A stretch of 56,551 nucleotides of DNA, filler included, from Stramenopiles sp. TOSAG23-3 (GCA_900128585.1; 4 parts of 4 records of this genome joined end to end with filler, not necessarily neighbours in it); one strand, 5' to 3'. Positions 3,051 to 54,491 are shown, numbered from the whole stretch's first letter. The notes: generated by a model not told the origin, from the letters alone. Translations and numbers: made by a program.

Positions 3051-3320
3051 AAGAAGAAGAAGTAGGATGGAAGAAAAGAAGAAGAAGAAAAGAAAGAAGA
3101 AGAAAAGAAGAAGGAAGAACAGAAGAAAGAAGAAGAAGAAGAAGAAGAAAGAAGAAGAAAGAAGAAGAAAGAAGAAGAAGAAAAGAAGAAGGAGGAGGCN
3201 NNNNNNNNNNNNNNNNNNNNNNNNNNNNNNNNNNNNNAGAAGAAGAAAGAAGAAGAAAGAAGAAGAAAGAAGAAGAAGAAAAGAAGAAGGAGGAGGCAAG
3301 AAGAAAAGAAGAAGAAAGAA
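3051..3320. repeat. (GAA)n purine microsatellite containing an assembly gap (N 3200-3237)
   Basis: Direct reading; lies in the divergent PEX3/bL19m spacer. Confidence 0.95.
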
Positions 3321-10049: not shown

Positions 10050-10074
10050 TAAAAACAAGAAAATTGGCTGTTAT
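10050..10074 (+). repeat. Dispersed intergenic motif TAAAAACAAGAAAATTGGCTGTTAT, copy 1
   Basis: Exact or near-exact matches at 12111, 12147, 35704, 47283 and, on the minus strand, 54310. Confidence 0.9.
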
Positions 10075-10474
10075 CTAAAGTAAGTATGAAAAAACAAAAT
10101 ACATAGTATGTTTTAAGACTCTCATTTTTAAATCAATTACTATTTCAAATCCAACCCTGATCCTATCTTGATTTTTTAATTTTTTTATTTCGTTTCGTCG
10201 TTGATGATTGTCAATCATCACAGAGGAATTATTTTTATTCCAATGAGAAGAATTATTACCAGGTGNNNNNNNNACTCATCAGAGTCACTTGGAGAATCAA
10301 TCATCCCTTTATTGCCAGAACTCGAATAGCGGCTGGACTTGTGTTGTGATTGATAAGAGATTTTTCATTTTTGTAAACTAAAATGCACTTAAATCGGATA
10401 AGAATTACATACTTAATCCACCGTTGTATTTTCACACTTCTCTGAACGAACGTTGACCTTCATCACCAAGATTG

Positions 10475-11530
10475 TTAACGATCCAACAGAAACAATCCAT
10501 CGTAATTTTTCCACGCTTCTCGTAATGCATGTCGCCCTTCAGCATCAATCCCGTTAATTTTCAAATTCATCTTTGTCAACGAAGTATTCACTTTCAACGC
10601 CTCTGCAACATATTTTGCCCCTTCAGCACCAATGTCGTTAAGTTCCAAACCAATCTCTGTCAACGAAGTATTCACTTTCAACACCTCTGCAACATCTTTT
10701 GCACCTTCAGCACCAATTTTGTTACATCCCAACTCAATCTTTGTCAACGAAGTATTCACTTTCAACGCCTCTACAACATATTTTGCCCCTTCAGCACCAA
10801 TGTTGTTATTTCCCAAATCAATCTTTGTCAACAAAGTATTCACTTTCAACACCTCTGCAACATCTTTTGTCACTTCAGCACCAATATTGTTAGTTCTCAA
10901 ATCAATCTCTATCAACGAAGGATTTACTTTCATCGCCTCTACAACATCTTTTGCCCCTTCAGCACCAATGTGGTTATAACCCAAATTAATCTTTGTTAAC
11001 GAAGTATTCACTTTCAACGCCGCTGCAACATATTTTGCCCCTTCAGCACCGATGTTGTTCTGTACCAAATTGATCTCTGTCAACGAAGTATTCACTTTCA
11101 ACGCCTCTGCAACATATTTTGCCCCTTCAGCACCAATGTGGTTATAACCCAACATAATCTTTGTCAACGAAGTATTCACTTTCAACGCCTCTGCAACATA
11201 TTTTGTCCCTTCAGCAACAATGTTGAAATGTTCCAAATCAATCGTGGAATAAAAATACGAGTAATACAGTGCTCTTCTTCCTCTGGCATAACACCTAAGA
11301 CTTTGCGTCTTTTCCCACAATATTTTCAGTTTTAATAAGTTATCGACATGATGGTTGTGAACATATTTACACGTCCCCAAAAGACTTGCCCAACACTTAA
11401 AGTCACCGCGAAGAAAGTCCATCATAAATACAAGTAACGCGTCCGGGAGCTCCTTCAGTGTCCTGATACCGTCCTCCTCCTTACTTGTCTTCCCCCTTTT
11501 CTTATCACTCTCGACTAATAAAATTGCCAT
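10475..11530 (-). CDS. F-box-like plus RNI-type (NLRC3-like) leucine-rich repeat protein
   Basis: N-terminal LKELPDALLVFMMDFL...WASLLGTCKYV fits the F-box pattern; eight 28-aa repeats AEGAKYVAEALKVNTSLTxIxLxxNxIG; visibly more AT-rich than neighbouring CDSs. Confidence 0.9.
   Translation of the reverse strand: MAILLVESDKKRGKTSKEEDGIRTLKELPDALLVFMMDFLRGDFKCWASLLGTCKYVHNHHVDNLLKLKILWEKTQSLRCYARGRRALYYSYFYSTIDLEHFNIVAEGTKYVAEALKVNTSLTKIMLGYNHIGAEGAKYVAEALKVNTSLTEINLVQNNIGAEGAKYVAAALKVNTSLTKINLGYNHIGAEGAKDVVEAMKVNPSLIEIDLRTNNIGAEVTKDVAEVLKVNTLLTKIDLGNNNIGAEGAKYVVEALKVNTSLTKIELGCNKIGAEGAKDVAEVLKVNTSLTEIGLELNDIGAEGAKYVAEALKVNTSLTKMNLKINGIDAEGRHALREAWKNYDGLFLLDR
10552..11222. repeat. Coding tandem array of eight 84-bp LRR units
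   Basis: Core gtcaacgaagtattcactttcaac (with minor variants) recurs at 10575, 10659, 10743, 10827, 10911, 10995, 11079 and 11163. Confidence 0.95.
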
Positions 11531-11690
11531 AATTCTCCTTTTGATTTTGAACTGTTATAAGTTGGGAAGTAAGAATGTGTTGATTGTTAATTTTTGTTTA
11601 TTTTTATATAAAATGGTTTGTTTCATTTCATTTCTTAGCGTTTTTATTTTCTTTAATTAGTGTCAAAGAAAGTGATTTCTTCTCGCTTGT

Positions 11691-11925
11691 TGATGATGAT
11701 GATGATGAAGAAAAAAAAGAAAAAAAAAAAAAAAAGAAGAAGAAAAGAAAGAAGAAGGAGAGACGAGAGGAGGAGGTGGAGGTGAGGAGAAAAGAAGAAG
11801 ATATATAATACTACTACTACTACTACGAGGAAAAGAGAAGAAGAGAGAGAAAAAAAAGATAAAATAATAATAAAAAAAAGAAGAATAAAATAAAAAGAAG
11901 AAGAAGCAAGAAGAAAAGAAGAAGT
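11691..11925. repeat. GAT/GAA/poly-A low-complexity tract upstream of the F-box/LRR gene
   Basis: Direct reading. Confidence 0.85.
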
Positions 11926-12110: not shown

Positions 12111-12209
12111 TAAAAACAAGAAAATTGGCTGTTATTATACTATATATAAAAACAAGAAAATTGGCTGTTATTTAAGTAATTAAAATTAATGTACTGCGAA
12201 CTGAAATCT
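12111..12209 (+). repeat. Dispersed motif copies 2 and 3 in tandem; copy 3 extends into a ~63-bp element shared with 47283-47347
   Basis: taaaaacaagaaaattggctgttat at 12111 and 12147, followed by taagtaattaaaattaatgtactgcgaactgaaatct. Confidence 0.9.
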
Positions 12210-17511: not shown

Positions 17512-20500
17512 TTAAAATGGGTACTTTTCGTATTTGTATGAATCAACACCAACACCATCAGGCGGATCGCCCAATTTCTCAAATTCAGATTTCAATTTTT
17601 TCAACAGTTTTTGAAGGGCGTTCGCGTCGGGGCCTCTTTGTTTTGCTTCTTCTATCCAGCCTTCAATTTGCTTGCAAATATAGAATTGTTTCAGTCGAAA
17701 GTGCTCTTTCACAAAAGCCTCGAATCCCGGGGGAGGATGTTGCAGCTGGCCAAGCATAGCATGCATGACTGTTGCCACCCTCAGCCGTTCATACCCACCA
17801 TTTTTGCTGGTTCTTGCTGCCTCGTGGGAACTTTCTTTGCCCCATTGTTGCTCAACCCCTGGTTCATTATAGTACGGGTACTGGCTTCCCAAAATTTGTC
17901 CCTGTACACTCACGATCACCTGCAGCACCGTGCTTTTTTTCGGAACCCAATTCTCTTGGCCAGTCGATCCACCTTGCCACGTGCCGAGCAGGCTAAGACA
18001 AACTTTGCCGCATTTGTACAGGTTGGGGTTGAAGCGAACTCGCCCTGCTCCCGTCGTCTCTAAATTGACCTTCGGAGGGACCTTGGGATAGTTAGGTGGA
18101 AAGTATACATCGAACACGAAACAGCCACTATCGTAAGGGGTGTTTGAAGGACCGGTTATCAGGACTTTCATTACAAATGGGCGCGTTTGATCAAACCGAA
18201 GTGCGATCATTGACCCAAAGTGAATTGGCATGTCGCGCTTGAGGCTCTTTAGTTCCCGATTAACGCGCTTGTCGCGAGATTTCGACACTTTTCCAGCAAT
18301 ATCTGCGGTGATTTCACCAGAATAATGATGGTTGTAGACAGATCCAGCGCCTTTCATATCGGTGGATTTAAACTGGTACCGTTTCAATTCTTCTGCGTAC
18401 AAAGCCATTAAGTTTGATGCGCCATCTACGATTTCATTGCCAGATGTCTCTGTTTCGCTAGAAATTTTCTGCTCACCATCGTTATCTTTTAGCTTCACTG
18501 CCGCATCGTCATCAAGTGATTTCATTGCGCTGTCGACGGCCAAATAGGCACCTTCGAATTCTTCTCGGAGTTTTGCGTCTGGGGTTAAGCCCCTTCCGTC
18601 ATATTTCTTTAACATCCAGTCCGAACCGTACAGAAGGTCTGTTATATCATTAGCCGGAGTATGGACGCGCATGGCGTCCTCATCGTCGTCCTCATCGTCA
18701 TCCATATCTGCACAGAGTTCAACATTCTCTGCTAGCAATTCATGGATAGATTTAGTCAGGCCCGGTAATTTCCCACAAAGTCTAATTGTCTCAGGGCGCT
18801 GGGCTAGACCAATGACCACGCGAAGAATGGCATGGTGAAGGCTCCTGTTCGAGGCCAGGGACATGGAGCTATTGCCAAACAGGTACGAGAAAAATACCGA
18901 AAGCAGTGGTGATGCCTCCACAATATTGGAAAACAAGTCCCAGTCCACAGGTATGGCTTGGTTGGGGATTTCCAAAAATAGAGCTAGGCAATGAAGTGCA
19001 TGGACTGTTGCCTTTTTCTTACGCTCGCGCTCATTTTCTTGCTTGTCGTATTCGTTCGTGCTGTTGTTGTGACCATGGCCAAAACCTGGTTTCCACAACA
19101 TTGATTTGTTACTTTCTTTGCTTTTTCCAGTCTTGCCAGTCGGACCGTTGGACGTCCCTTGGCCGCCGGTGCTTGAGTTTGAAGAAGCTGCATTTGATAC
19201 CTTCCTTATTAGAACATTTACTGAATCTTTAAATGTATCGGTCCATTTGGGGTCTCGGGGACCTTCCCCTTGCAAGGTTCCGATCCTCAATAAAAGGCGA
19301 GAGATAGTGCCGCTTGAAACAGACATTGATGTGAGCTTTGGAGACACTGCATCTCCGATGCGCGCCTTGAACATATTTGATAAAATACTCACTTGGCACG
19401 ACATTGGATCTAACATATAATCTGCGGCTGAAGGAATGTCACACATGTCGACACCAAGAGCAACCAGTAGAAGCGAGACACACATAGTATGACCAGCAAA
19501 ACTGTCTGCAAAGCCAGGAAGCTCGATGCTGCTTTCTAAATTTGACAACCATAGTAATAGCACTCGTCTTGATTTCTCTTTCTCGCTATTTGTGGTCACT
19601 TTAGAATTGACAAGATCTAGCGCATTGTCATTATAGAGCGAAACTGTGCCGCTACCGGAATGGGACCTTTCAGAACGCAAAAGACGCTTTATTATACACT
19701 TTAGCACACCGCGAGATGCTATCTGCTTCAACATGGGGAATGTGTTCGCCTCTGTGGGTGCATGGGGTAAGATAGCAAAACTGGGATTATGACCAGGAGC
19801 GCAAGTCATTTGCGGCCGAACTGCGATTCCGTTGTGAGCTGTAATGGGCCACAAGCCCCGTGCAATGGCACCACCACTGAACCTTGAAAGAACAAAACTC
19901 TCAGATTTACTGCACGATACTAGCACTTGAGTTCCCATAAAAAAGTTTAGCATGTGAGCAGACGATCCCAACTCTTTTTTGAACATTTCTGTCAGGCGCT
20001 TTGGCCTTTTAGTAGTCATTACACTCGATATGTTTACGCGAATTTGCTTACCAATGAAAGCATCTACTTTACTTTCCATTATTAATGCTGCAACATCAAA
20101 ATTTATGAAACCACCGACGTGTTGCTTGAAGTCTTGGTGTGAAGTGGCTGTAACAGAAACGCTCCCTCTACCCCGCAATTCGTTTCTAACAGACGGGTGA
20201 AGTTGAAGGCAAATAGCAAATGTGACGCAGGGTGTTTTTGCATAACCGCCCCACTGTCCATCAAACGCGTCGCAGCGACTGGTATTTTCGGAACATGTAT
20301 TGGAAGCCACTGGTTTGAATTCAATATCTACTATTGTGTTCCCATTATTTTGAAGCACAAGGTCTCTAGCACGTGTTTTCGCATTTACATGAGCCGAGGG
20401 TTCACATTTCTTATACAGTTCATAGCTACGGTCTATTCCACATTTGTTCATCGCTAAATCTAGCACTAGCATGTCGGCAGGCAAAGTATAAAGTGGAGAA

Positions 20501-23500
20501 TCTCGTAAAAAAGACATTTCCTTTTCGGCATAATAAATTTCGCCAGCCCGCAATGTAATGCTTTGGGGCGAGAACCACCTTTGCAAGCTTAACCCATCGC
20601 CAAATCTCATTTTCCCTCCTTTTGCTGAAGGGGAACTTGAAAGAAGATTCGATATCGTTGCTGAATCATTTTTATAATATAGACTCACCGCAGGATAAAA
20701 TGCATTGCTAGGTAAATTGTTGAATGCAACACCTTGGTGCCTCCCGTTAAGAGCGAAACTTAGCGTCCGTTGCTCGCAGTCCAAGAAGACTGTAACAGTA
20801 TCACCCTTTCCATAGCGTTCACCATATGGTTTATTGTTCACTCTTGAACCATTAAATATGTGCCCACTTGCAGCATAATAACCCCAGCTGGAAGAAGTTG
20901 CACCTATGTACGATCCGTTTGAGCCTAACATTTTGTGGGCTTTTTTAGGACCACCAGATACATTTGTGATACCAATAAAATGTTGAATGTCATGCCCAAC
21001 CTTTGAACGCACTATTGATTTTACTTTTATAGTCCACTGATGTACGCCTTCAGAAAAGCACTGGTTTGCCAGTATCGACTGGTGGGCCATACTTCCATAT
21101 GACACAACTGCCGTGTCACCCCTAATGTGCAGATGTTTACCAACAGAGTCACAGTTTTGGTCCCATGAAATCGGGGCAGGACTTCCTTTGGAGACGGAAT
21201 TGTTATTGTTGCTACTATTTTTAAGATCGGGAATATGCAACGTAGAATTGAAAATGCTTCTTGGTGAATGAATTGCCACGTAAACCATTTGCTTCATTTG
21301 AACTGCTTTCACTAATAGACGGCTTAAAAATGGACCGAATGTTGTGTCCGATTCTAAAAGAGTGCTAATTACTGTAGCAACAATGCTTTGGTTTTTAACG
21401 TTCAAATTCCACGCCGCTTCTATCATCCGAAGACCTTCTTCCAAAAGAACATTGGTACTATTCGTTTTGGGGACTATTTGCGAAAAACATCGTATCGCTT
21501 TTTCCAGAAAATATTCACCGATAAGATTTTTTCCATAGCCCGAGAGTGCCGCACCCCTAAGCATAGCTATCATTCCTGCGCATTGCTCATGTGTTTTTAC
21601 CACATCTGATGGCAATTCACTTTGTAACTGAAAATTTTCCATAAGCATCACTATCCACTTTTCAATGCGGCCGAGCAAACTAGGGTACGCCCCCAATATC
21701 ATCCCGATAAGTCTATATTTGGGACCATCCCAGCACGACCCAGTAAGTTCTTCCAGCAGAGCTGGTTTGAGTCTTCCCACAATGGTGATTAAAAATCTTT
21801 GGCAGATTGTATTCATTGTGGCTAGGTCCTTATTTGCAGCCAACATGTACGCGCGTTCGAACATTCCATGAACATCATGGAGGAATATGCCCTCTGACCC
21901 ATCCAAGGGGGTATCGTCGTAGATATAGCCAATTACTTTTGTCAAAGCCTCAATGTAGAACACTAAGGCATTTGCAAGTGATATATGTGTCATATCCGCC
22001 TGCCCATTTATCTCCAAATGTTTGTACACAAAATCCCATAGTGCACCGACGTTTGAAAACGCCAATTTACAAACTAAATTCGCGTAAGATCTGTGCAAAG
22101 TTGGAAAATCTAAAATTCTCTTAACCAGCCGTTTTGCGACATCCACACTCTTTCTACCGACTGATAGCAACACAATCGAGGCATGGGGGCTGTTTGGAAC
22201 GTGGGGGAGCAACGCAGACATAACGTTTTCAGTCATTGGGGCAGAAGAGAGTGCAGAGCAAACACTACTGTGCGTATTACAGGAACATGCCAAAATATAA
22301 AGGCACAATTTTACCGAGGGCTTTGTGGTAATAGCTGTCGAGGGTAAAGCAGAGTTAGCATTCATGTCGGCCGTCCCGTAAATATGAATTCCTGTCAAGT
22401 TCCCTGTCGGAAGAGGAAGACCAGAACTTTCGCTCTCCAAGTCAACGTCATCACTCATTGCAGCAAAAGGTACGTATCTGAACGATATTCGTAAAACTCT
22501 TATTGCCGTCACGCCCACAACAGCGATGGTTGCCGCACCTACATCGCGATTAGATATGTTTGTACGAGAACTAGAGTCCATATGAACTAGATTCATATAG
22601 GGGTCCATTAAAGAATCTGATTCCCAACCAAATTTTTGTTTTGATGGTCTATTGGTTCTGCCGTTTTTTGTGGAAACAAGCGTTGCCGATCCTGCACAAT
22701 TTAATTGGGAACATGTCGTACCTGTTGAAACTGTAACGTACGAGGGAATAATATTTCGTGAATGCTTATCGCCGATATGCTGAACCTTCTTTGCACAGCG
22801 GACGTTTATCGAAGATACGATAACATCTTCTGGAAACAACAGGGTGACATCCCAATGAAACTGCTTGCCATGCTTCTTAAATCGAAATTCGACAACATCA
22901 GAAGGCGATATTTTAGCATCACTCATACTGCTCCGTTTTAAGAGTGACGCTAAGCGGAGCCCAGGTGTTCCAATTGATCTTGTGCCTTGAATATCAAGGA
23001 CTTGGCATCGGCTCGTTATGGGTTGTCTACCATGGGAGTAGGGCATGCGAACAACAGATTTTTGTGTGCCATCTATTCTTGGCCACTCCAGACTTGGTTT
23101 GCGGCCAACTAGCTTTTGTACATTTAGAAACGGACTCTCAAATATTGTTCGGGAGAACCAGTTTGCTGCCTCCTCTGTAGACTGAACCACTTGCATCGCT
23201 AAATTTACCAACCGGCTTGAAAAGTTAGACTCGTCTGAGATCTTTTGCAGGACTTCCATCAGCACAGCCAAAACCGGCGATCCCTCAGGGTGCATCGCCA
23301 GTGAAAATATATTGACAACTTCTGATTCAACGAGGTCACGCAATTGATGACATAATTGGTCTGTATACATGTTTGAAGTAACCAGCCATTCTAGAATTAC
23401 CTTTGCAGCGGATGGAAACCCAATATTTTGTATAATTGGCGCCGTAATTGACCGTAAAAAGTTATTGAAAACCGTGGGGCAAGAATCGTCCCGAGCAAGA

Positions 23501-26121
23501 CTTATGAACCGGCTAACTAGTTTTGCTATTTCGAGTGCTGTGTTTAATTCCGATTGTGTTACAGTACATGATTTTTGTCGTTCTGCCAATAATATGTTGC
23601 TTAAGTGCGAAAGCATGTTGCCCATATAATTCGTTTTCATATTACTGCAATCATTGTAAAGCCCAAATGATTCAGTGACCACAGAAAGTAATTGACAAAG
23701 AATAGAGCTTTTGAAGCGAGACGAAACAGCAAACGTGTCCAGCACAACTTTTAGAGTACACTGTCTCAGCACTCCTTGCATATCAACAGTATTACGTGGG
23801 TTTAGATGAATTAATTTGAACAGTTGAACAAACTCGTCTGCGACTACGGCCACGAAATTCTCTTTTCCAACGAGCACCGATGCCAAAATAATAGGGTAAG
23901 ATTGCAGAAATACTTGAGATTGTACCAATTCATGCAGTGTGCTAAATGCACTTAACGTCTTGCAACAGGCACTCCAAGAGAGAGCTGCATCGCAGGTTTC
24001 AAGTGGGGTTCTCCCTATCAATTCAAACAACTGTATTGATTCTCCAACAGATAATGTGAACGCGGGTTCCGTTTTGCTATTGGACCCCATCAAAATTGAG
24101 TGGTATTCTTCCCGTTCTACAACACATAGTATATCCACCACTCGGCAAATCGCGATACCTCTCAGTCTCGACAACCGAGAATCATCACCAATTCCCAAAA
24201 GTGTCAATTCAGTAGCTATTCCACCCACGTGAGTTATATACAACGTTTGTGATCCCATTTTAAACCCCATGCGGCTACGTATCTCACGTTTTATCAAATC
24301 ACAGGAAGCATTATAGGGGGTTTCGAAAGAAAATGTTTTCCCCCAACATCGTATGATCAGTAGAATAGTACCTTCAGCAGTGTAAGTTTCTGAAACAATC
24401 TCACCCATTTTTGATTCCCCGTCGTGAAACATAGTGTGTGGATTGTTCGTAGTAATTGATTTAAAGAGCCCCAAGTATTTAGTCCCTAACGACTCTAAGG
24501 TGAAAGAAATGGAAGGCACGAATCCATCAGATGTGATTTCTATGCTTTCTACATAAGCATCGACTTTGGTGGGGTTCGATTTCATAAATATTGCAGAGCA
24601 AACATTGTCGTGCTTCACTATTTGTCCAGCCAACCCAGCATTGCCTTCCGCGCACCTTATACCAATATAACAATTTGCTTTGATCAATACAGAATGCTTC
24701 AGGGATATCGTCTGTTTCGATTCAGTGCGTAGTCTATCGACACCGATCAATTCTGTTCTTTCAACCAGTTTATATTTATTGTTAAATCGCTTAAATATTT
24801 GTATTTCCCAGCCTTCGCCAGAACTTGATTTGCTCAAAAGCAGCTCAATTTTGCTAAGGAACCCAGAGCGAGGCACTGGTGTCTCCAGGATACAAACATT
24901 GTATCCCGAAGGATGCGGAGATGGCGAGGCGTTATCTCTGACCTTGCCAATGACAATTGGTCCATTCTCTTCAGCAATTTGGGCTTGTTGAATTTCTTCA
25001 TCCGAAACATAGATCGAAGTGTTATTGGTGATGCTCTTTTCTATCGCGATAGTAACAGAGTCCTTGGGCCCATATAGACTCACGGCAGGATATATTGTTT
25101 TCCCTTTAAAACAACCAGTGTAAGCAACACCCTGGTTTTCACCGTTGATAGCAAAAGATAATGTATCATTCACCATGTCTAGGATAACAGTGACTGTATC
25201 ACCCGTGCCATACTGTTTCCCATACGGCTTCGTATGAGACTGGGCGTAGCACTTCTTTGATACGGAATAGTACCCCCAACTCTGGGTGGACTTTGATGCT
25301 CCTAGATAAGTGCTCAGTATTGAGAGTCGTTTGCTGGATGCTGAGCCAGGACCTTCGGGCCATTCTGTCACACCAACAAAGATGTATTTTTGTGGAGAGA
25401 CATTGTCGCATATAATGTTCCATGCAACAACACCATCGGAAATAGGATAATTTGCGACTCCAGTGCGAAATGTAGAAAGGGACTGCTTGTCTAAACACAA
25501 TGTTTTCCCTTCATTCGAAATAGAAAAAGCGTGAAAACATTTGCGTTCCTCAAAATATATTTGGGTGGAAGAACGCCCATTGCCAAAAACATACGCTAAG
25601 TTTAAGTTTTCTGTACACTGTGATCGTGTTATCTTCCTAAGAAAAGCAGACTTTTTGCGCAAAACATCATCGCTTGTGCTCTTAATTTCTATACATAATT
25701 CGACAGGTTTAGAGTCTTGGCAGGATTCAGACCACCCTCGTTCAATTAGGCGATCTTGATCTGCCAACACCTCGCCATTTGTTGTCAATTGCTGCAGAAA
25801 AGGGTCTATCCCAGTCAATTTTGATATCTTTTGTTTAAGATCAAATATAGTTAAGTGTGGGGACAACGTTATTACTAGAAAAGCACTTCCCAGCTGGACT
25901 TGAACAGTAGTGCTGTTAACCGCGCTGTCCTGCCCCGCAGTAACCTCCACATCGAGTTCTGCTCGAAACGATAGCACCAAATGCAACAATCTAAGCAGGA
26001 AAGGCAAGTTGCAGTGCCGGTTTTCAGATATTGAAGTTGAGACAATATCCAATGCAACATCTTTTAGACGGGAACGAAGGATTGAAAGGGAATTGAGATA
26101 GTCACTGTGTGTATTTTTGCT
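17512..26121 (-). CDS. Giant BIRC6-type ubiquitin-conjugating enzyme with two Ubl-like and two SPRY domains; 5' end runs into the gap
   Basis: C-terminal UBC ([26 protein letters not shown].V...[27 protein letters not shown]...PYYNEPG); upstream WKPGFGHG motif; two SPRY copies (GDTVTV.LD....TLSFA.NG..QGVA....YPAVSL); reading frame open from 26052 up to the N run. Confidence 0.9.
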   Translation of the reverse strand, partial: [2869 protein letters not shown]

Positions 26122-26221
26122 NNNNNNNNNNNNNNNNNNNNNNNNNNNNNNNNNNNNNNNNNNNNTTAATTAATTAANNNNNNNNNNNNNNNNNNNNNNN
26201 NNNNNNNNNNNNNNNNNNNNN
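26122..26221. other. Artificial scaffold linker (44 N + TTAATTAATTAA + 44 N)
   Basis: Six-frame stop linker centred in an exactly 100-nt gap; same structure at 52231 and 54392. Confidence 0.95.
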
Positions 26222-27345: not shown

Positions 27346-28452
27346 ATGTCAGCAGCCAGTGAGCCAAAAATCGAAGAGTCTCTTGAAGGGGCAGACTCCC
27401 CAGAACAGACGAGCGCGGGAGAGCTTGAAAGCAAGTCCGACCCGGACACGGAAAAGAAAAATCTAATTTCGGAGACTATGGTTCAACCGCTTGAGATTGA
27501 AGTCTCGAGCAATGAAAAGGACGCGAAGAAGACCAAGGCTGGCCTGTGCGAGAGCGGTGCCCTACTTCAGTGGGCGGGCGTGTGCTTGTGGGCCTCCTTC
27601 GGCGTCACGTTGCGAATCTTCATGGGCTTCATACCTGCCGAGCAGGGCTCGTTCATTGCCATGTTCGGAAAGAGTTTTCTGCTGCAGAATATTCTCGGTT
27701 CATTCATTCTGGGAGCCCTTTCGTCGCTGACGAAAAACATGTCAAAGACTACCAAGTTTCACCTGTCGCCCGCCGTTACTACCGGTTTCTGTGGGAGCCT
27801 GACCACCTGGTCGAGTTGGCAACAATCGATCGCGGTGAAGTTTGTCTCCAACAAAGTCGCCGACGGCCTTTTGAACTACTCCCTGGGCCACGCGTTGTTC
27901 TACATCGCATTTCGGGGGGGAATACACATGGCTGAGACCATCTCCGCGTGCAGACCGGCCGAAGGCAAGAAGGACGGCGCGCCCGTTAAAGGCAGTATGC
28001 TGGAAAAGTTCACGTTCGGGCTCTTTCTGAGCGTGTACGTCTTGCTGGTGGTACTGATTGCCGTTGCGGGCCAAGAATACCGTCACATGTACTTTGGGGC
28101 CTTTTTTGGTGGCGCCGGTGCTATGCTCCGTTACGTTCTGGGAAAGTTCAACAAAGCTGGACAGATTCCTTTGTTTACGCTGTTAGCCAACGTCCTCGGG
28201 TCCATTTTTGTTGCCGCGGTCACGCGTTCCCTCTACCACGCCAGTGTCGCCGGGAACGCCTTCGTCCCAGGCCAAGGAAACTGGGCAGTCGATATCGGGG
28301 TTGGGGGTATCCTCGGCTTTGGGGGTGCGTTGACGACCGTATCTTCCTACATTGGTGAGATCCACAAGCTACCACGTGGTCAAATGTATTTGTACGCCAT
28401 TTTGAGTTTCTTCTCCACGCAGCTCTTCATGGTCATCATCAACTCTTTGTAA
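27346..28452 (+). CDS. FEX: Fluoride exporter FEX (two fused Fluc/CrcB domains)
   Basis: GVTLR, NILGSFILG, TTGFCGSLTTWSSW, then GAMLRY, TLLANVLGS, GFGGALTTVSSY; multiple TM helices. Confidence 0.92.
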   Translation: MSAASEPKIEESLEGADSPEQTSAGELESKSDPDTEKKNLISETMVQPLEIEVSSNEKDAKKTKAGLCESGALLQWAGVCLWASFGVTLRIFMGFIPAEQGSFIAMFGKSFLLQNILGSFILGALSSLTKNMSKTTKFHLSPAVTTGFCGSLTTWSSWQQSIAVKFVSNKVADGLLNYSLGHALFYIAFRGGIHMAETISACRPAEGKKDGAPVKGSMLEKFTFGLFLSVYVLLVVLIAVAGQEYRHMYFGAFFGGAGAMLRYVLGKFNKAGQIPLFTLLANVLGSIFVAAVTRSLYHASVAGNAFVPGQGNWAVDIGVGGILGFGGALTTVSSYIGEIHKLPRGQMYLYAILSFFSTQLFMVIINSL

Positions 28453-28461
28453 ATTTTTACT

Positions 28462-28632
28462 TGGAGTTGGGTGTATCCTCGGCTTTGGGGGTTCGGTTCG
28501 TTGACGACCGTATCTTCCTACATTGGTGAGATCCACAAGCTACCACATGGTCAAATGTATTTGTACGCCATCTTGAGTTTCTTCTCCACGCAGCTCGTCA
28601 TGGCCAATCATCAAGTCTTTGTAAATATTTTA
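28462..28632 (+). pseudogene. Diverged tandem duplicate of the FEX 3' end
   Basis: Near-copy of ~28297-28459 with substitutions and small indels (extra ggttc; ggccaatc versus ggtcatc). Confidence 0.9.
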
Positions 28633-35703: not shown

Positions 35704-35727
35704 TAAAAAACAAGAAAATTGGCTGTT
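35704..35727 (+). repeat. Dispersed motif copy 4
   Basis: taaaaaacaagaaaattggctgtt, 100 nt after the SGNH stop. Confidence 0.85.
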
Positions 35728-36154
35728 CTCATACGATATACCGCCATTAAAAAAACAAAATTATATACCCCGCCATTAATATATTTTGTTTTTAATTAAA
35801 TGCATAATTACAAAGTACGTACGAATTAATTATTTATCAACTTTTTCTTCATAGCCTAGAATTACCACACCTTCTAATTCTTTAATTCGTAAATATAACC
35901 CAGGTCAGTTTGACTTTTTTGTTTATGCACATATAAAATATCATAATTTCAACCACGAGCATTTCTTTCAAAAAAATCAAAATGTGTGCGTTAATTTTAG
36001 TAATTAAAAATTGATCTTCCTCGTGTACCGCGAAAATGAATACTTAGTAGTACTTTGTACTTATTACCCACGCAAATTGTTTGTGCCCCAATCTTTTGTA
36101 ACCCTCTCTGGCACCCTGTTCCAGCTCCCCCCCTCCCTCTCTCTGCTACGGTAC

Positions 36155-43892: not shown

Positions 43893-44729
43893 TTAATAAT
43901 AATCCAGATCCGTACTAGTAAACAAATCCGTATCATAGTACGTTCTTTCTTGGCAATCTAACCGAGATAAATGAACATCTAAGTGATACTTACTCTTTCC
44001 TTTAGCCTCCCAAACTCTTCCGAATTTGTTTTTTAATTCAGGTGAGATATTGGTGTTATCTTCCAACCAAAGATCAGTCAATGATGGTAATGAACCATTC
44101 TCAACTAGCTCAAGAAGACCTTGACAACCAACATTACCAATCTTATTACCATTCAAACCAAGAGAATCCAACGATACCATCTCTGGTAGGACCTTACAAA
44201 TTGAAGCAATGCCATTATCTCCAATATTGTTGTAAGACAAAGAAAGAAACCTTAAGTTTGTCATTGTTGGTAAGGCCGAAGCGATTGTTCGGCAGCCTTC
44301 ATCTCCAATATTGTTTTTAGACAAATAAAGCCTCTTCAAGTTTGTCATTGTTCTTAAGGCCGGAGCGATTGTTCGGCAGCCTTCATCTCCAATATTGTTT
44401 GTAGACAAATAAAGCTTCTCCAAGCTTGTCATTGTTCTTAAAGCGGGCGCTACGAATTGAAGTCCTTCATCTCCGTACTGGTTTTGGTTCAAATACAGTA
44501 GAATCAACCCCGTCATTTTCATTAACGCTGGCGCAAGTATTTTACACCCTTCGGGAGTGATCTTCTTCCCGGAAATATCCAACGGCCCCGTGAACCCCTC
44601 GCCTTTCTTCATCAAGTCCGCTTTATCCTTCCCGACGACCCTTTCCACGGCGTCCCAATCAACGTCCGTGAAGCCTTCAGGTTTTGGGACCGTGGGCGCA
44701 TTGTCTTGAGTGGTTGCTAAGGAGGCCAT
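43893..44729 (-). CDS. RNI-type leucine-rich repeat protein (LRR gene 2)
   Basis: 28-aa repeats L..LYLS.NNIGDEGCRTIA.AL.TMTN; near-identical 84-bp units around 44254-44470; first ATG at 44729. Confidence 0.9.
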   Translation of the reverse strand: MASLATTQDNAPTVPKPEGFTDVDWDAVERVVGKDKADLMKKGEGFTGPLDISGKKITPEGCKILAPALMKMTGLILLYLNQNQYGDEGLQFVAPALRTMTSLEKLYLSTNNIGDEGCRTIAPALRTMTNLKRLYLSKNNIGDEGCRTIASALPTMTNLRFLSLSYNNIGDNGIASICKVLPEMVSLDSLGLNGNKIGNVGCQGLLELVENGSLPSLTDLWLEDNTNISPELKNKFGRVWEAKGKSKYHLDVHLSRLDCQERTYYDTDLFTSTDLDYY

Positions 44730-47282: not shown

Positions 47283-47384
47283 TAAAAACAAGAAAATTGG
47301 CTGTTATTTATAAGTAATGAAAATTAATGTACTGCGAATTGAAATCTCAAATAATTTTTTAAAACAAAAACTTTGGCTGTTATT
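47283..47384 (+). repeat. Dispersed motif copy 5 with ~63-bp extension, plus degenerate copy 6
   Basis: taaaaacaagaaaattggctgttat...taagtaatgaaaattaatgtactgcgaattgaaatct, then taaaacaaaaactttggctgttat. Confidence 0.88.
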
Positions 47385-52230: not shown

Positions 52231-52330
52231 NNNNNNNNNNNNNNNNNNNNNNNNNNNNNNNNNNNNNNNNNNNNTTAATTAATTAANNNNNNNNNNNNNN
52301 NNNNNNNNNNNNNNNNNNNNNNNNNNNNNN
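52231..52330. other. Artificial scaffold linker
   Basis: 44 N + TTAATTAATTAA + 44 N. Confidence 0.95.
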
Positions 52331-54391: not shown

Positions 54392-54491
54392 NNNNNNNNN
54401 NNNNNNNNNNNNNNNNNNNNNNNNNNNNNNNNNNNTTAATTAATTAANNNNNNNNNNNNNNNNNNNNNNNNNNNNNNNNNNNNNNNNNNNN
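54392..54491. other. Artificial scaffold linker
   Basis: 44 N + TTAATTAATTAA + 44 N. Confidence 0.95.

What the first reader, a model, noticed from the sequence alone, without database searches (positions are those of the whole stretch)
10475..11530. F-box/LRR gene with a homogenised scaffold and hypervariable ligand face
Seen: eight 84-bp units share an almost invariant ~60-nt scaffold, including most synonymous sites, while a ~20-nt block differs between units: KIMLGYNH, EINLVQNN, KINLGYNH, EIDLRTNN, KIDLGNNN, KIELGCNK, EIGLELND, KMNLKING. Scaffold variants (KYV/KDV, AEAL/AEVL/VEAL) reassort between units like a mosaic, and units 1 and 3 share LGYNH. Known: these x positions of xLxLxxNx form the concave binding surface of LRR solenoids, and F-box domains couple substrates to SCF ligases. 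Inference: concerted evolution or repeat shuffling plus diversifying selection on a receptor that may route foreign (e.g. viral) proteins to ubiquitination, i.e. a protist innate-immune-like repertoire gene.
Basis: partly seen in the sequence, partly recalled or inferred. Interest (0 to 1): 0.78.

Follow-up and report, generated by a model that had tools for sequence, protein, structure and literature searches.

The report
Shuffling LRR gene with F-box-like head
This is an intact gene of a marine protist whose eight nearly identical leucine-rich repeats differ almost only at the residues expected to touch a ligand; that pattern is already known from fungal immune-type receptors, and its proposed F-box head is only weakly supported.

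Summary
Window 10475-11530 (- strand) is an intact, intronless 351-codon ORF. It has a 102-aa helical N-terminal domain, eight in-frame 84-bp RI-type LRR units (Pfam LRR_6, E=3.5e-38) and a C-terminal cap.

Four of 28 codons hold 51% of all differences between units. The other 23 codons have pS 0.074 and pN 0.073.

The gene belongs to a small, dispersed, lineage-specific family. I recovered five metagenome loci and about ten predicted proteins, with 1 to 8 units each. Two near-identical loci carry 2 and 4 units. Some copies carry a stop codon or a frameshift.

Scaffold synonymous divergence between paralogues (0.047) is 4-7 times lower than in the N-terminal domains of the same genes (0.19-0.36). 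This points to concerted evolution. All 32 units examined have a different ligand-face combination.

The F-box call is not established. Pfam gives no hit for this protein. Three weak lines do agree on F-box: one relative at E=0.062, a top PDB hit to the AnkB F-box at E=0.12, and language-model neighbours.

The immune role is speculation. The closest known analogue is the set of internally conserved repeats in fungal NLRs. Similar LRR arrays occur in many protist relatives. Read mapping could not be done.

The parts
10475..11530 (-). Complete intronless CDS of 351 codons plus stop (protein P0001). Start and stop line up with those of family members (MASLLVES... at the start, ...AWKxxxGLxL* at the end).
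11225..11530 (-). N-terminal family-specific helical domain, residues 1-102. It includes the first, degenerate strand (STIDL) that caps the LRR solenoid.
11315..11458 (-). F-box-like core, residues 25-72 (LKELPDALLVF.MDFLRGDFKCWASLLGTCKYV...). L28, P29, L32, F39 and D43 are invariant in 18 relatives. F-box homology is suggested but sub-threshold.
   Evidence: negative results
10553..11224 (-). Eight in-frame 84-bp (28-aa) RI-type LRR units, residues 103-326. Unit k spans 11141-84(k-1) to 11224-84(k-1). The scaffold is xIGAEGAKYVAEALKVNTSLT(K/E)I. The hypervariable codons are 24, 26, 27 of each unit and codon 1 of the next. Codon 22 is dimorphic (K/E).
10478..10552 (-). C-terminal capping half-unit, residues 327-351 (GIDAEGRHALREAWKNYDGLFLLDR). 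It is conserved in complete family members.
11531..11700 (-). 5' flank of about 170 nt, conserved in all six family copies compared. It is a putative 5'UTR or promoter that was duplicated together with the gene.
10404..10474 (-). 3' flank of about 70 nt that still aligns with paralogues L001 and L005.

Best explanation
This is a nuclear, intronless gene of a compact-genome marine flagellate. It encodes a cytosolic adaptor-type protein with three parts: a ~75-aa helical N-terminal domain that is probably a very divergent F-box, eight 28-residue ribonuclease-inhibitor-type LRRs, and a C-terminal cap.

It is one member of a small, dispersed, lineage-specific gene family. The LRR units of this family are kept almost identical at the nucleotide level, both within a gene and between paralogues. 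The likely cause is repeated unequal crossing-over and gene conversion, that is, concerted evolution with gain and loss of whole 84-bp units. Four to five codons on the beta-strand and the following loop differ in every unit, so each gene presents a different binding surface.

What is shown: the architecture, family membership, the homogenised scaffold, the concentration of variation, and unit-number variation. What is inferred: selection for diversity at the face, binding of variable protein ligands, and (if the head is an F-box) delivery of those ligands to an SCF ubiquitin ligase. An anti-viral or non-self recognition role is only a hypothesis.
For: Architecture:
- LRR_6 scores E=3.5e-38, above Pfam's cut-off.
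- In the AlphaFold model the LRR part has pLDDT 82-96, with strand/helix alternation.
- Foldseek and PDB sequence hits are to RI-like, NLR, CARMIL and tropomodulin LRRs.

Family:
- 3 proteins share the N-terminal domain in the word-indexed search.
- 11 representatives have E<=0.001 in the exhaustive search.
- 5 DNA loci were confirmed out of 170 pattern matches in metagenome contigs, three of them from one assembly.
- Copies are dispersed. L003 lies between a hydrolase and a myotubularin. The window copy lies between a CAP-Gly gene and a CCDC39 gene.
- About 170 nt of the 5' flank is conserved in all 6 copies.

Concerted evolution:
- N-terminal pS between the window gene and the loci is 0.19-0.36. 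Scaffold pS between window units and locus units is 0.047 over 56 unit pairs.
- Scaffold pN is about equal to pS: 0.073 against 0.074 within the gene and 0.055 against 0.047 between genes. This fits recent homogenisation better than old purifying selection.
- 17 of 36 site pairs fail the four-gamete test.

Unit turnover:
- Complete members have 1, 1, 2, 4 and 8 units.
- L001 and L005 have an identical C-terminal tail (69 of 69 nt) and flanks 95-100% identical, but carry 2 and 4 units.

Face diversity:
- Face pN is 0.44-0.52, against scaffold pS of 0.04-0.07 and N-terminal pS of 0.19-0.36.
- All 32 units in 13 members have distinct face combinations, while K15 and L20 are identical in 32 of 32.

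F-box leads:
- P0127 matches Pfam F-box-like at E=0.062, residues 26-60 against profile positions 1-33.
- The best PDB hit of the 14-sequence profile is the F-box segment of chain 5k35_A (Ankyrin-repeat protein B), E=0.12, with LP aligned to LP and TC aligned to TC.
- The three best named language-model neighbours of residues 18-92 are F-box clusters (0.83, 0.82, 0.80). Nine of the ten best named hits share that family or clan.
- The F-box plus RI-type LRR architecture exists elsewhere: P0038 carries PF00646.
Against: - There is no F-box or F-box-like Pfam hit for this protein, or for 17 of 18 family members, at E<=10.
- PDB profile searches with the 4-sequence and the 6-sequence sub-alignments give no F-box.
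- hhalign against the F-box of P0038 gives probability 0.1.
- The AlphaFold N-terminus has pLDDT 28-68, so the fold is untested.
- All language-model scores are under 0.9, which the tool rates as leads only.
- The within-face pN/pS of 1.7 rests on about 2 synonymous sites, and the units are not independent.
- Scaffold omega near 1, an in-frame TAG in L005 and a frameshift in L003 could also mean a decaying, weakly constrained family.
- The gene's GC3 is 0.41, against 0.51-0.82 for 21 of the other 23 ORFs scored. This is unexplained.
- Expression, population polymorphism at this locus and the unit order in the assembly were not verified.
Confidence: 0.6

Rival explanations
1. The N-terminal domain is not an F-box. 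It would be a lineage-specific helical cap or dimerisation module, and the protein a generic RI-like LRR binding scaffold with no link to ubiquitination, like the RanGAP, tropomodulin or axonemal LRR proteins that dominate the structural hits.
For: No significant F-box hit was found in Pfam or PDB or by hhalign. The N-terminal model has low confidence. The best sequence and fold hits are LRR proteins of axonemes, CARMIL, tropomodulin, RI and NLRs. The organism is flagellated, since a CCDC39 gene lies next door.
Against: Three independent weak searches converge on F-box. Two of them agree on the register, with the invariant LP at the start of the domain. The third is the set of language-model neighbours. 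The predicted helices at 30-40, 44-53 and 55-76 follow the LP motif as in an F-box (low confidence).
Confidence: 0.3
2. The pattern needs no diversifying selection. The array would be a young tandem amplification in a birth-and-death family, the face positions would simply be unconstrained, and the rest would be too young to have diverged. The family may be drifting toward pseudogenes.
For: Scaffold pN is about equal to pS. L005 has an in-frame stop and L003 a frameshift. There are very few synonymous sites in the face codons. GC3 is low.
Against: Face pN of 0.51 is about 7 times scaffold pS, and exceeds the synonymous divergence of the N-terminal domains of the same genes (0.19-0.36). Neutral sites in young copies cannot be more diverged than synonymous sites next to them. 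All 32 units have distinct faces. The 351-codon ORF is intact.
Confidence: 0.2
3. Part of the pattern (unit number, unit order, mosaic scaffold variants) is an assembly artefact. Short reads from several paralogues would have been collapsed or chained into one array.
For: Scaffold stretches are identical between units for up to 62 nt. 120 of 796 31-mers are non-unique. The window has N gaps, one about 200 nt from the gene. Paralogues share the scaffold. No reads could be laid.
Against: No 63-mer is repeated. The array has eight units with 0% indels in a continuous frame, with a proper N-cap and C-cap. Independent assemblies show the same architecture.
Confidence: 0.1

Closest known systems
Highly internally conserved (HIC) WD40/ANK/TPR repeats of fungal NLR-like proteins (Podospora HNWD family). 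I read passages of PMC4986451. PMC2873952 and PMC1805685 were seen only in search listings.
   Same: Repeat units are nearly identical to each other. Concerted evolution acts within and between paralogues. Repeat number is polymorphic. A handful of hypervariable positions per unit lie on the binding face. The family is lineage-specific with birth and death of copies.
   Different: The repeat here is an LRR, not WD, ANK or TPR. No NACHT or NB-ARC domain is present. The head is F-box-like rather than a HET or cell-death domain. Amino-acid identity between units (mean 0.72) is below the 85% HIC criterion quoted in that paper. The function is untested.
F-box/LRR substrate receptors of SCF ligases, and the fast-evolving F-box families of nematodes and plants. 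I read passages of PMC8120010, which cites Thomas 2006 (not read).
   Same: The architecture would be an N-terminal F-box followed by an LRR substrate-binding domain. The head is conserved while the substrate-binding part varies. It is a multigene family. The published hypothesis is that such variation lets SCF target microbial proteins.
   Different: The F-box is not detected by Pfam here. The repeats are 28-residue RI-type; from recalled knowledge, classical FBXL proteins have ~26-residue cysteine-containing repeats. Variation here is packaged in shuffled, homogenised units. No Skp1 binding has been shown.
[quoted passage not shown]
   Same: It is a protist or algal family in which LRR units are reshuffled, the binding residues appear to be under diversifying selection, and birth-and-death rates are high.
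   Different: There, each repeat is a separate exon and the genes carry ROCO GTPase domains. Here the array is intronless and the head is F-box-like.
'NLRC3-like', 'NOD3' or RanGAP-annotated RI-type LRR proteins of protists and Rickettsiales (hits, e.g. P0003, P0011, P0019, P0038)
   Same: They share the same 28-aa consensus (IGxEGAKxLAEALKxNxxLxxLxL) at 40-56% identity to the array. Many have equally or more uniform repeats. This gene scores 0.71.
   Different: They lack this family's N-terminal domain, which the searches found in only about 15 sequences. That sample is biased towards repetitive hits.

Membership tests
RI-type (ribonuclease-inhibitor-like, Pfam LRR_6) leucine-rich repeat proteins | A Pfam LRR_6 match above the gathering score | tested here: met
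   127.1 bits against a cut-off of 23.4, E=3.5e-38, 6 stretches
RI-type (ribonuclease-inhibitor-like, Pfam LRR_6) leucine-rich repeat proteins | A 28-29-residue period with LxxLxLxxNxIGxxGaxxLaxaL and an alternating strand/helix solenoid | tested here: met
   Period 84 nt with no indels. Unit consensus. AlphaFold strands at 124-126, 152-154 and 180-182 alternate with helices, pLDDT 82-96. Fold hits are to NOD2, NLRP, RI-like and CARMIL LRRs.
F-box proteins (SCF substrate receptors) | A significant match to an F-box profile (PF00646 or PF12937) | tested here: not met
   No hit for this protein or its N-terminus at E<=10. One of 18 relatives hits at E=0.062, below threshold.
F-box proteins (SCF substrate receptors) | A three-helix fold of about 45 residues starting at a conserved LP motif | tested here: inconclusive
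   LP28-29 is invariant in 18 sequences. Helices are predicted at 30-40, 44-53 and 55-76, but at pLDDT 44-68. The second model has mean pLDDT 50.9. The top PDB profile hit is the AnkB F-box segment in register, at E=0.12. Language-model neighbours are F-box clusters at 0.80-0.83.
F-box proteins (SCF substrate receptors) | Binding to Skp1 | not testable with these tools
No complex prediction was run.
NOD-like receptors (NLR/STAND) | A central NACHT or NB-ARC NTPase domain | tested here: not met
   No such Pfam family at E<=1. The protein has only 351 aa, all accounted for by the head, the LRRs and the cap.
Repeat receptors with high internal conservation under concerted evolution (regime described for fungal NLRs, PMC4986451) | Units more than 85% identical over at least 100 aa | tested here: not met
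   Mean amino-acid identity between units is 0.72 (0.83 for the scaffold only). Nucleotide identity is 0.865.
Repeat receptors with high internal conservation under concerted evolution (regime described for fungal NLRs, PMC4986451) | Concerted evolution of repeats within and between paralogues | tested here: met
   Scaffold pS between genes is 0.040-0.047, against N-terminal pS of 0.19-0.36 between the window gene and the loci. Four-gamete failures occur in 17 of 36 site pairs.
Repeat receptors with high internal conservation under concerted evolution (regime described for fungal NLRs, PMC4986451) | Repeat number polymorphism | tested here: met
   Family members have 1-8 units. The near-identical loci L001 and L005 have 2 and 4 units. 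This is shown between copies and contigs, not between individuals at the window locus.
Repeat receptors with high internal conservation under concerted evolution (regime described for fungal NLRs, PMC4986451) | Positive diversifying selection at binding-face codons | tested here: inconclusive
   Face pN is 0.515 against face pS 0.305 (about 2 synonymous sites) and scaffold pS 0.074. All 32 faces are distinct. No likelihood site model was run.

The most novel reading that the evidence does not exclude
A marine heterotrophic or algal flagellate would keep a repertoire of F-box/LRR adaptors whose ligand face is diversified by a built-in cassette mechanism. Homogenised 84-bp units would recombine within and between dispersed paralogues, and selection would keep the four face codons different. 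The repertoire would route foreign proteins, for example from viruses or intracellular bacteria, to SCF ubiquitination. That would be an NLR-independent, degradation-based innate recognition system in protists. It would be convergent with fungal HIC-NLRs and lamprey VLRs, and possibly widespread, given the many protist LRR proteins with equally uniform repeats.
Probability: 0.15. Interest if true: 0.75.

Novelty: new variant of a known kind. Interest (0 to 1): 0.45.

Why it matters
If the reading holds, the 'homogenised scaffold plus hypervariable face plus unit shuffling' way of building recognition diversity extends beyond its known cases. It is known for the WD, ANK and TPR repeats of fungal NLRs and for LRR exons of a brown alga. 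Here it would apply to intronless RI-type LRR genes of marine protists, coupled to a probable ubiquitin-ligase adaptor head rather than to an NTPase. It would also give a concrete, small gene family for testing whether protists use F-box adaptors against viruses, using the organism's Skp1, infection transcriptomes and substrate pull-downs. As it stands, the gene is a clear example of a known evolutionary regime with an unproven function.

Tried and rejected
- Whole-genome paralogue count: no genome is held for this window. The loci's records are not held either.
Nothing was laid.
- Sequencing-run index: 20 of 21 listed runs hold part of 10300-11700. Two hold at least half of the sampled words, and 6 are on record as RNA with shares of 0.19-0.34. 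Because nothing was laid and paralogues share the scaffold, I draw no conclusion about expression, habitat or polymorphism.
- Viral origin: there is no exact match of a 25-nt scaffold stretch and no relative of the N-terminal domain (0 of 53 pattern matches) in the viral contig collection.
- Longer relatives of the N-terminal domain: only P0002 was found, which the tool itself rates as weak evidence.
- Fold search on the 1-190 model: only the LRR part matched. The N-terminal-only model was too poor (mean pLDDT 50.9) to search.
- hhalign against the single F-box/LRR protein P0038 gave nothing.
- The PDB search with the distant-subfamily profile gave no F-box.
- Rfam on the whole window gave no match.
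- Synteny between the window copy and L003: rejected.
- Literature: searches found no paper that describes this family, or homogenised RI-type LRR arrays with an F-box head in protists. Supplements were not consulted.
- A first attempt to cut units of other proteins by regular expression failed. It was replaced by a lag-28 identity scan.

Full report
**What is there**

On the - strand, window 10475-11530 is an uninterrupted 351-codon ORF. The tandem-repeat finder reports one array at 10562-11243 with period 84, 8.1 copies, 85% matches and no indels. Read in frame from residue 103, the ORF gives eight 28-residue units of the form xIGAEGAKYVAEALKVNTSLT(K/E)IxLxxN.

Pfam places the repeats in LRR_6 at E=3.5e-38, 127 bits against a 23.4-bit cut-off. 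PDB sequence and fold searches hit only RI-like, NLR, CARMIL, tropomodulin and axonemal LRR proteins, and only through this part. In an AlphaFold model of residues 1-190, the LRR part has pLDDT 82-96. Short strands lie at unit positions 22-24 and alternate with helices.

The array is preceded by a 102-residue helical domain. It is followed by a half-unit cap, GIDAEGRHALREAWKNYDGLFLLDR.

**Context**

The window is nuclear DNA of a eukaryote with a compact genome. It holds mostly intronless housekeeping ORFs: a SEP/UBX protein, Pex3, mitochondrial ribosomal protein L19, a CAP-Gly protein, CCDC39, a mitochondrial carrier, a CrcB-domain protein, a calcium-dependent kinase and others. They are separated by AT-rich spacers full of AAG/CTT microsatellites. 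CCDC39 implies a flagellate.

The runs that share words with the locus are mostly labelled marine or seawater, but none was laid. The nearest language-model clusters are haptophyte proteins at scores under 0.9, which counts only as a lead. No whole genome is held.

**Is the variation really concentrated?**

Yes.
- Units are 80-92% identical in nucleotides, with a mean of 0.865.
- Of the 28 variable sites, 14 lie in the 27 nt of codons 21-28 plus 1, and 14 in the other 57 nt.
- Codons 24, 26, 27 and 1 carry 51% of all pairwise differences.
- The six x positions of LxxLxLxxNx, which are fixed beforehand by the motif, carry 58%. Only 39 of 376,740 six-codon sets reach that share.
- By Nei-Gojobori counting, the 23 scaffold codons have pS 0.074 and pN 0.073. 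The four face codons have pN 0.515 and pS 0.305, the latter on only about 2 synonymous sites.
- The 'mosaic' impression is real. 17 of 36 pairs of informative sites show all four combinations, which needs recombination between units or recurrent mutation.

**It is a gene family**

The N-terminal domain is rare.
- 3 proteins match it in the word-indexed search of 5.8 billion sequences.
- 11 representatives match at E<=0.001 in the exhaustive profile search of 1.84 billion. These include a more distant subfamily with the motif LPDxLLxYVLEFFRGDFKT.
- 5 DNA loci were confirmed among 170 pattern matches in metagenome contigs. Three come from one assembly.

All members share the MASL...LPDALLVF.MDFLRGDFKCW...TCKY head, the same scaffold and the same cap. 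Complete members have 1 (P0124, P0128), 2 (L001), 4 (P0002) and 8 (window) units.

L001 and L005 have flanks 95-100% identical and an identical C-terminal tail (69 of 69 nt), but carry 2 and 4 units. L005 has TAG where L001 has AAG. L003 has a frameshift after its first unit.

The copies are dispersed. L003 lies between a hydrolase gene and a myotubularin gene. The window copy lies between CAP-Gly and CCDC39. There is no similarity between those neighbours. About 170 nt upstream of the ATG and about 70 nt downstream of the stop are conserved between copies.

**Concerted evolution**

Between the window gene and the five loci, the N-terminal domain differs at pS 0.19-0.36 and pN 0.08-0.15. Between any window unit and any unit of those loci, the scaffold differs at pS 0.047 and pN 0.055 over 56 pairs. 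That is no more than between units of one gene, where pS is 0.064.

Without exchange, a unit pair from two genes cannot be younger than the genes themselves. So the scaffold is being homogenised across the family, or its synonymous sites are under a constraint that the N-terminal codons of the same mRNA do not feel. The scaffold ratio pN/pS near 1 favours homogenisation followed by nearly neutral drift. The unit-number differences point to unequal crossing-over as the engine.

Across 13 members, all 32 units have a different residue combination at positions 22, 24, 26, 27 and the next position 1. Meanwhile K15 and L20 are identical in 32 of 32 units. Face divergence (pN about 0.5) exceeds both scaffold and N-terminal synonymous divergence. 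A purely neutral, young-duplicate model does not predict this.

I did not run a likelihood site model. The units are few, short and recombining, so positive selection is strongly suggested but not proven.

**The F-box question**

Evidence against:
- Pfam finds no F-box or F-box-like match in the protein or its isolated N-terminus, even at E<=10.
- Profiles of 4 or 6 relatives find no F-box in the PDB.
- hhalign against the F-box of the one annotated F-box/LRR hit, P0038, fails.
- AlphaFold models the head at pLDDT 28-68, so no fold comparison is meaningful.

Evidence for:
- L28, P29, L32, F39 and D43 are invariant in 18 sequences.
- One relative (P0127) matches F-box-like at E=0.062, starting exactly at the LP motif.
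- The best PDB hit of the 14-sequence profile, among 177,635 sequences, is chain 5k35_A (Ankyrin-repeat protein B), E=0.12, over chain residues 10-67, with LP and TC aligned. From recall, not from a call, that segment is the F-box of a Legionella effector solved with Skp1.
- The three best named language-model neighbours of residues 18-92 are F-box clusters (0.83, 0.82, 0.80). Nine of the ten best named hits share that family or clan.

Each of these is only a lead. Their agreement makes a divergent F-box more likely than not, at about 0.6-0.65. Skp1 binding could not be tested.

**Comparison with what is known**

The evolutionary regime is the one described for fungal NLR-like genes with highly internally conserved WD, ANK or TPR repeats. 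That regime combines concerted evolution within and between paralogues, repeat-number polymorphism, and positive selection at a few binding-face positions (passages read in PMC4986451). It has also been described for LRR exons of brown-alga ROCO genes (abstract of PMC3341825).

Fast evolution of the substrate-binding part of F-box proteins has been published for nematodes, together with the idea that it serves defence (passages read in PMC8120010).

Differences here are the RI-type LRR repeat, the absence of any NTPase domain, a non-canonical head, and unit amino-acid identity (0.72) below the 85% criterion used for fungi.

The uniform-repeat property is not special to this gene. This gene scores 0.71. 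My literature searches found no description of this family, or of this regime for F-box-like/RI-LRR genes of protists.

**Open points**

- The gene's GC3 is 0.41. Only two of the other 23 ORFs scored are similarly low: the second LRR gene of the window (0.43) and a giant SPRY/UBC gene (0.41). The other 21 lie at 0.51-0.82. This is unexplained.
- The immune interpretation rests only on analogy.

**Verdict**

The concerted-evolution and hypervariable-face reading is well supported. The F-box is plausible but unproven. The immune role is speculative. This is a new variant of a known kind, of moderate interest.

Noticed in passing
window 10054-10074, 12115-12135, 12151-12171, 35709-35729, 47287-47307, 47363-47383 (all + strand); L003:4623-4643 (-): A 21-nt motif, AACAAGAAAATTGGCTGTTAT, occurs 6 times in the window at up to 3 mismatches, where 0 are expected by chance. 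All copies are in one orientation. Copies bracket the AT-rich island that holds the LRR gene. One copy also lies downstream of the family copy in L003, in the same relative orientation. The copies at 12151 and 47287 share about 65 nt. There is no Rfam match. It contains a CCAAT core on the opposite strand. It could be a regulatory or 3'-end signal, or a short interspersed element.
   Followed up: partly
window 43893-44729 (-), repeats at 44217-44474: This is a second RI-type LRR gene (278 aa, LRR_6 E=7e-21) of another subfamily. It has its own 84-bp repeats, 2.7-3.1 copies at 84-89% identity, and a GC3 of 0.43. The metagenomic protein P0083 combines a segment like this gene's N-terminal part with AEGAKYLAEALKVNTSL-type units. 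That hints at exchange between LRR families.
   Followed up: partly
window 17512-25176 (-): This is a 2554-aa intronless ORF with SPRY and ubiquitin-conjugating (UQ_con) domains. Its GC3 is 0.41, as low as the two LRR genes, while 21 of the other 23 ORFs scored have 0.51-0.82.
   Followed up: no
protein P0126 (929 aa): This predicted protein matches positions 14-56 of the family's N-terminal profile in 10 tandem stretches (...SKLPHELIVKLFASNDHINRWLCWAVLSQTCKSQ...). It is either a tandem array of F-box-like motifs or a translation of repetitive DNA.
   Followed up: no
L005:1213-1918 and L003:4001-4455: Some family copies look broken. L005 has an in-frame TAG at position 22 of its fourth unit, where L001 has AAG. 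L003 needs a +1 frameshift after its first unit to reach the conserved cap. These could be pseudogenes or sequencing errors.
   Followed up: partly
window 26122-26221, 52231-52330, 54392-54491, 3200-3237, 10266-10273: There are runs of N. Three are pairs of 44-N runs separated by 12 bases. One is a 38-N run, and one is an 8-N run about 200 nt downstream of the LRR gene's stop. They are assembly gaps or masked stretches.
   Followed up: no
window 28300-28632: A 171-bp tandem duplication (2.0 copies, 92% identity) lies within and just 3' of the CrcB-domain ORF at 27346-28452.
   Followed up: no
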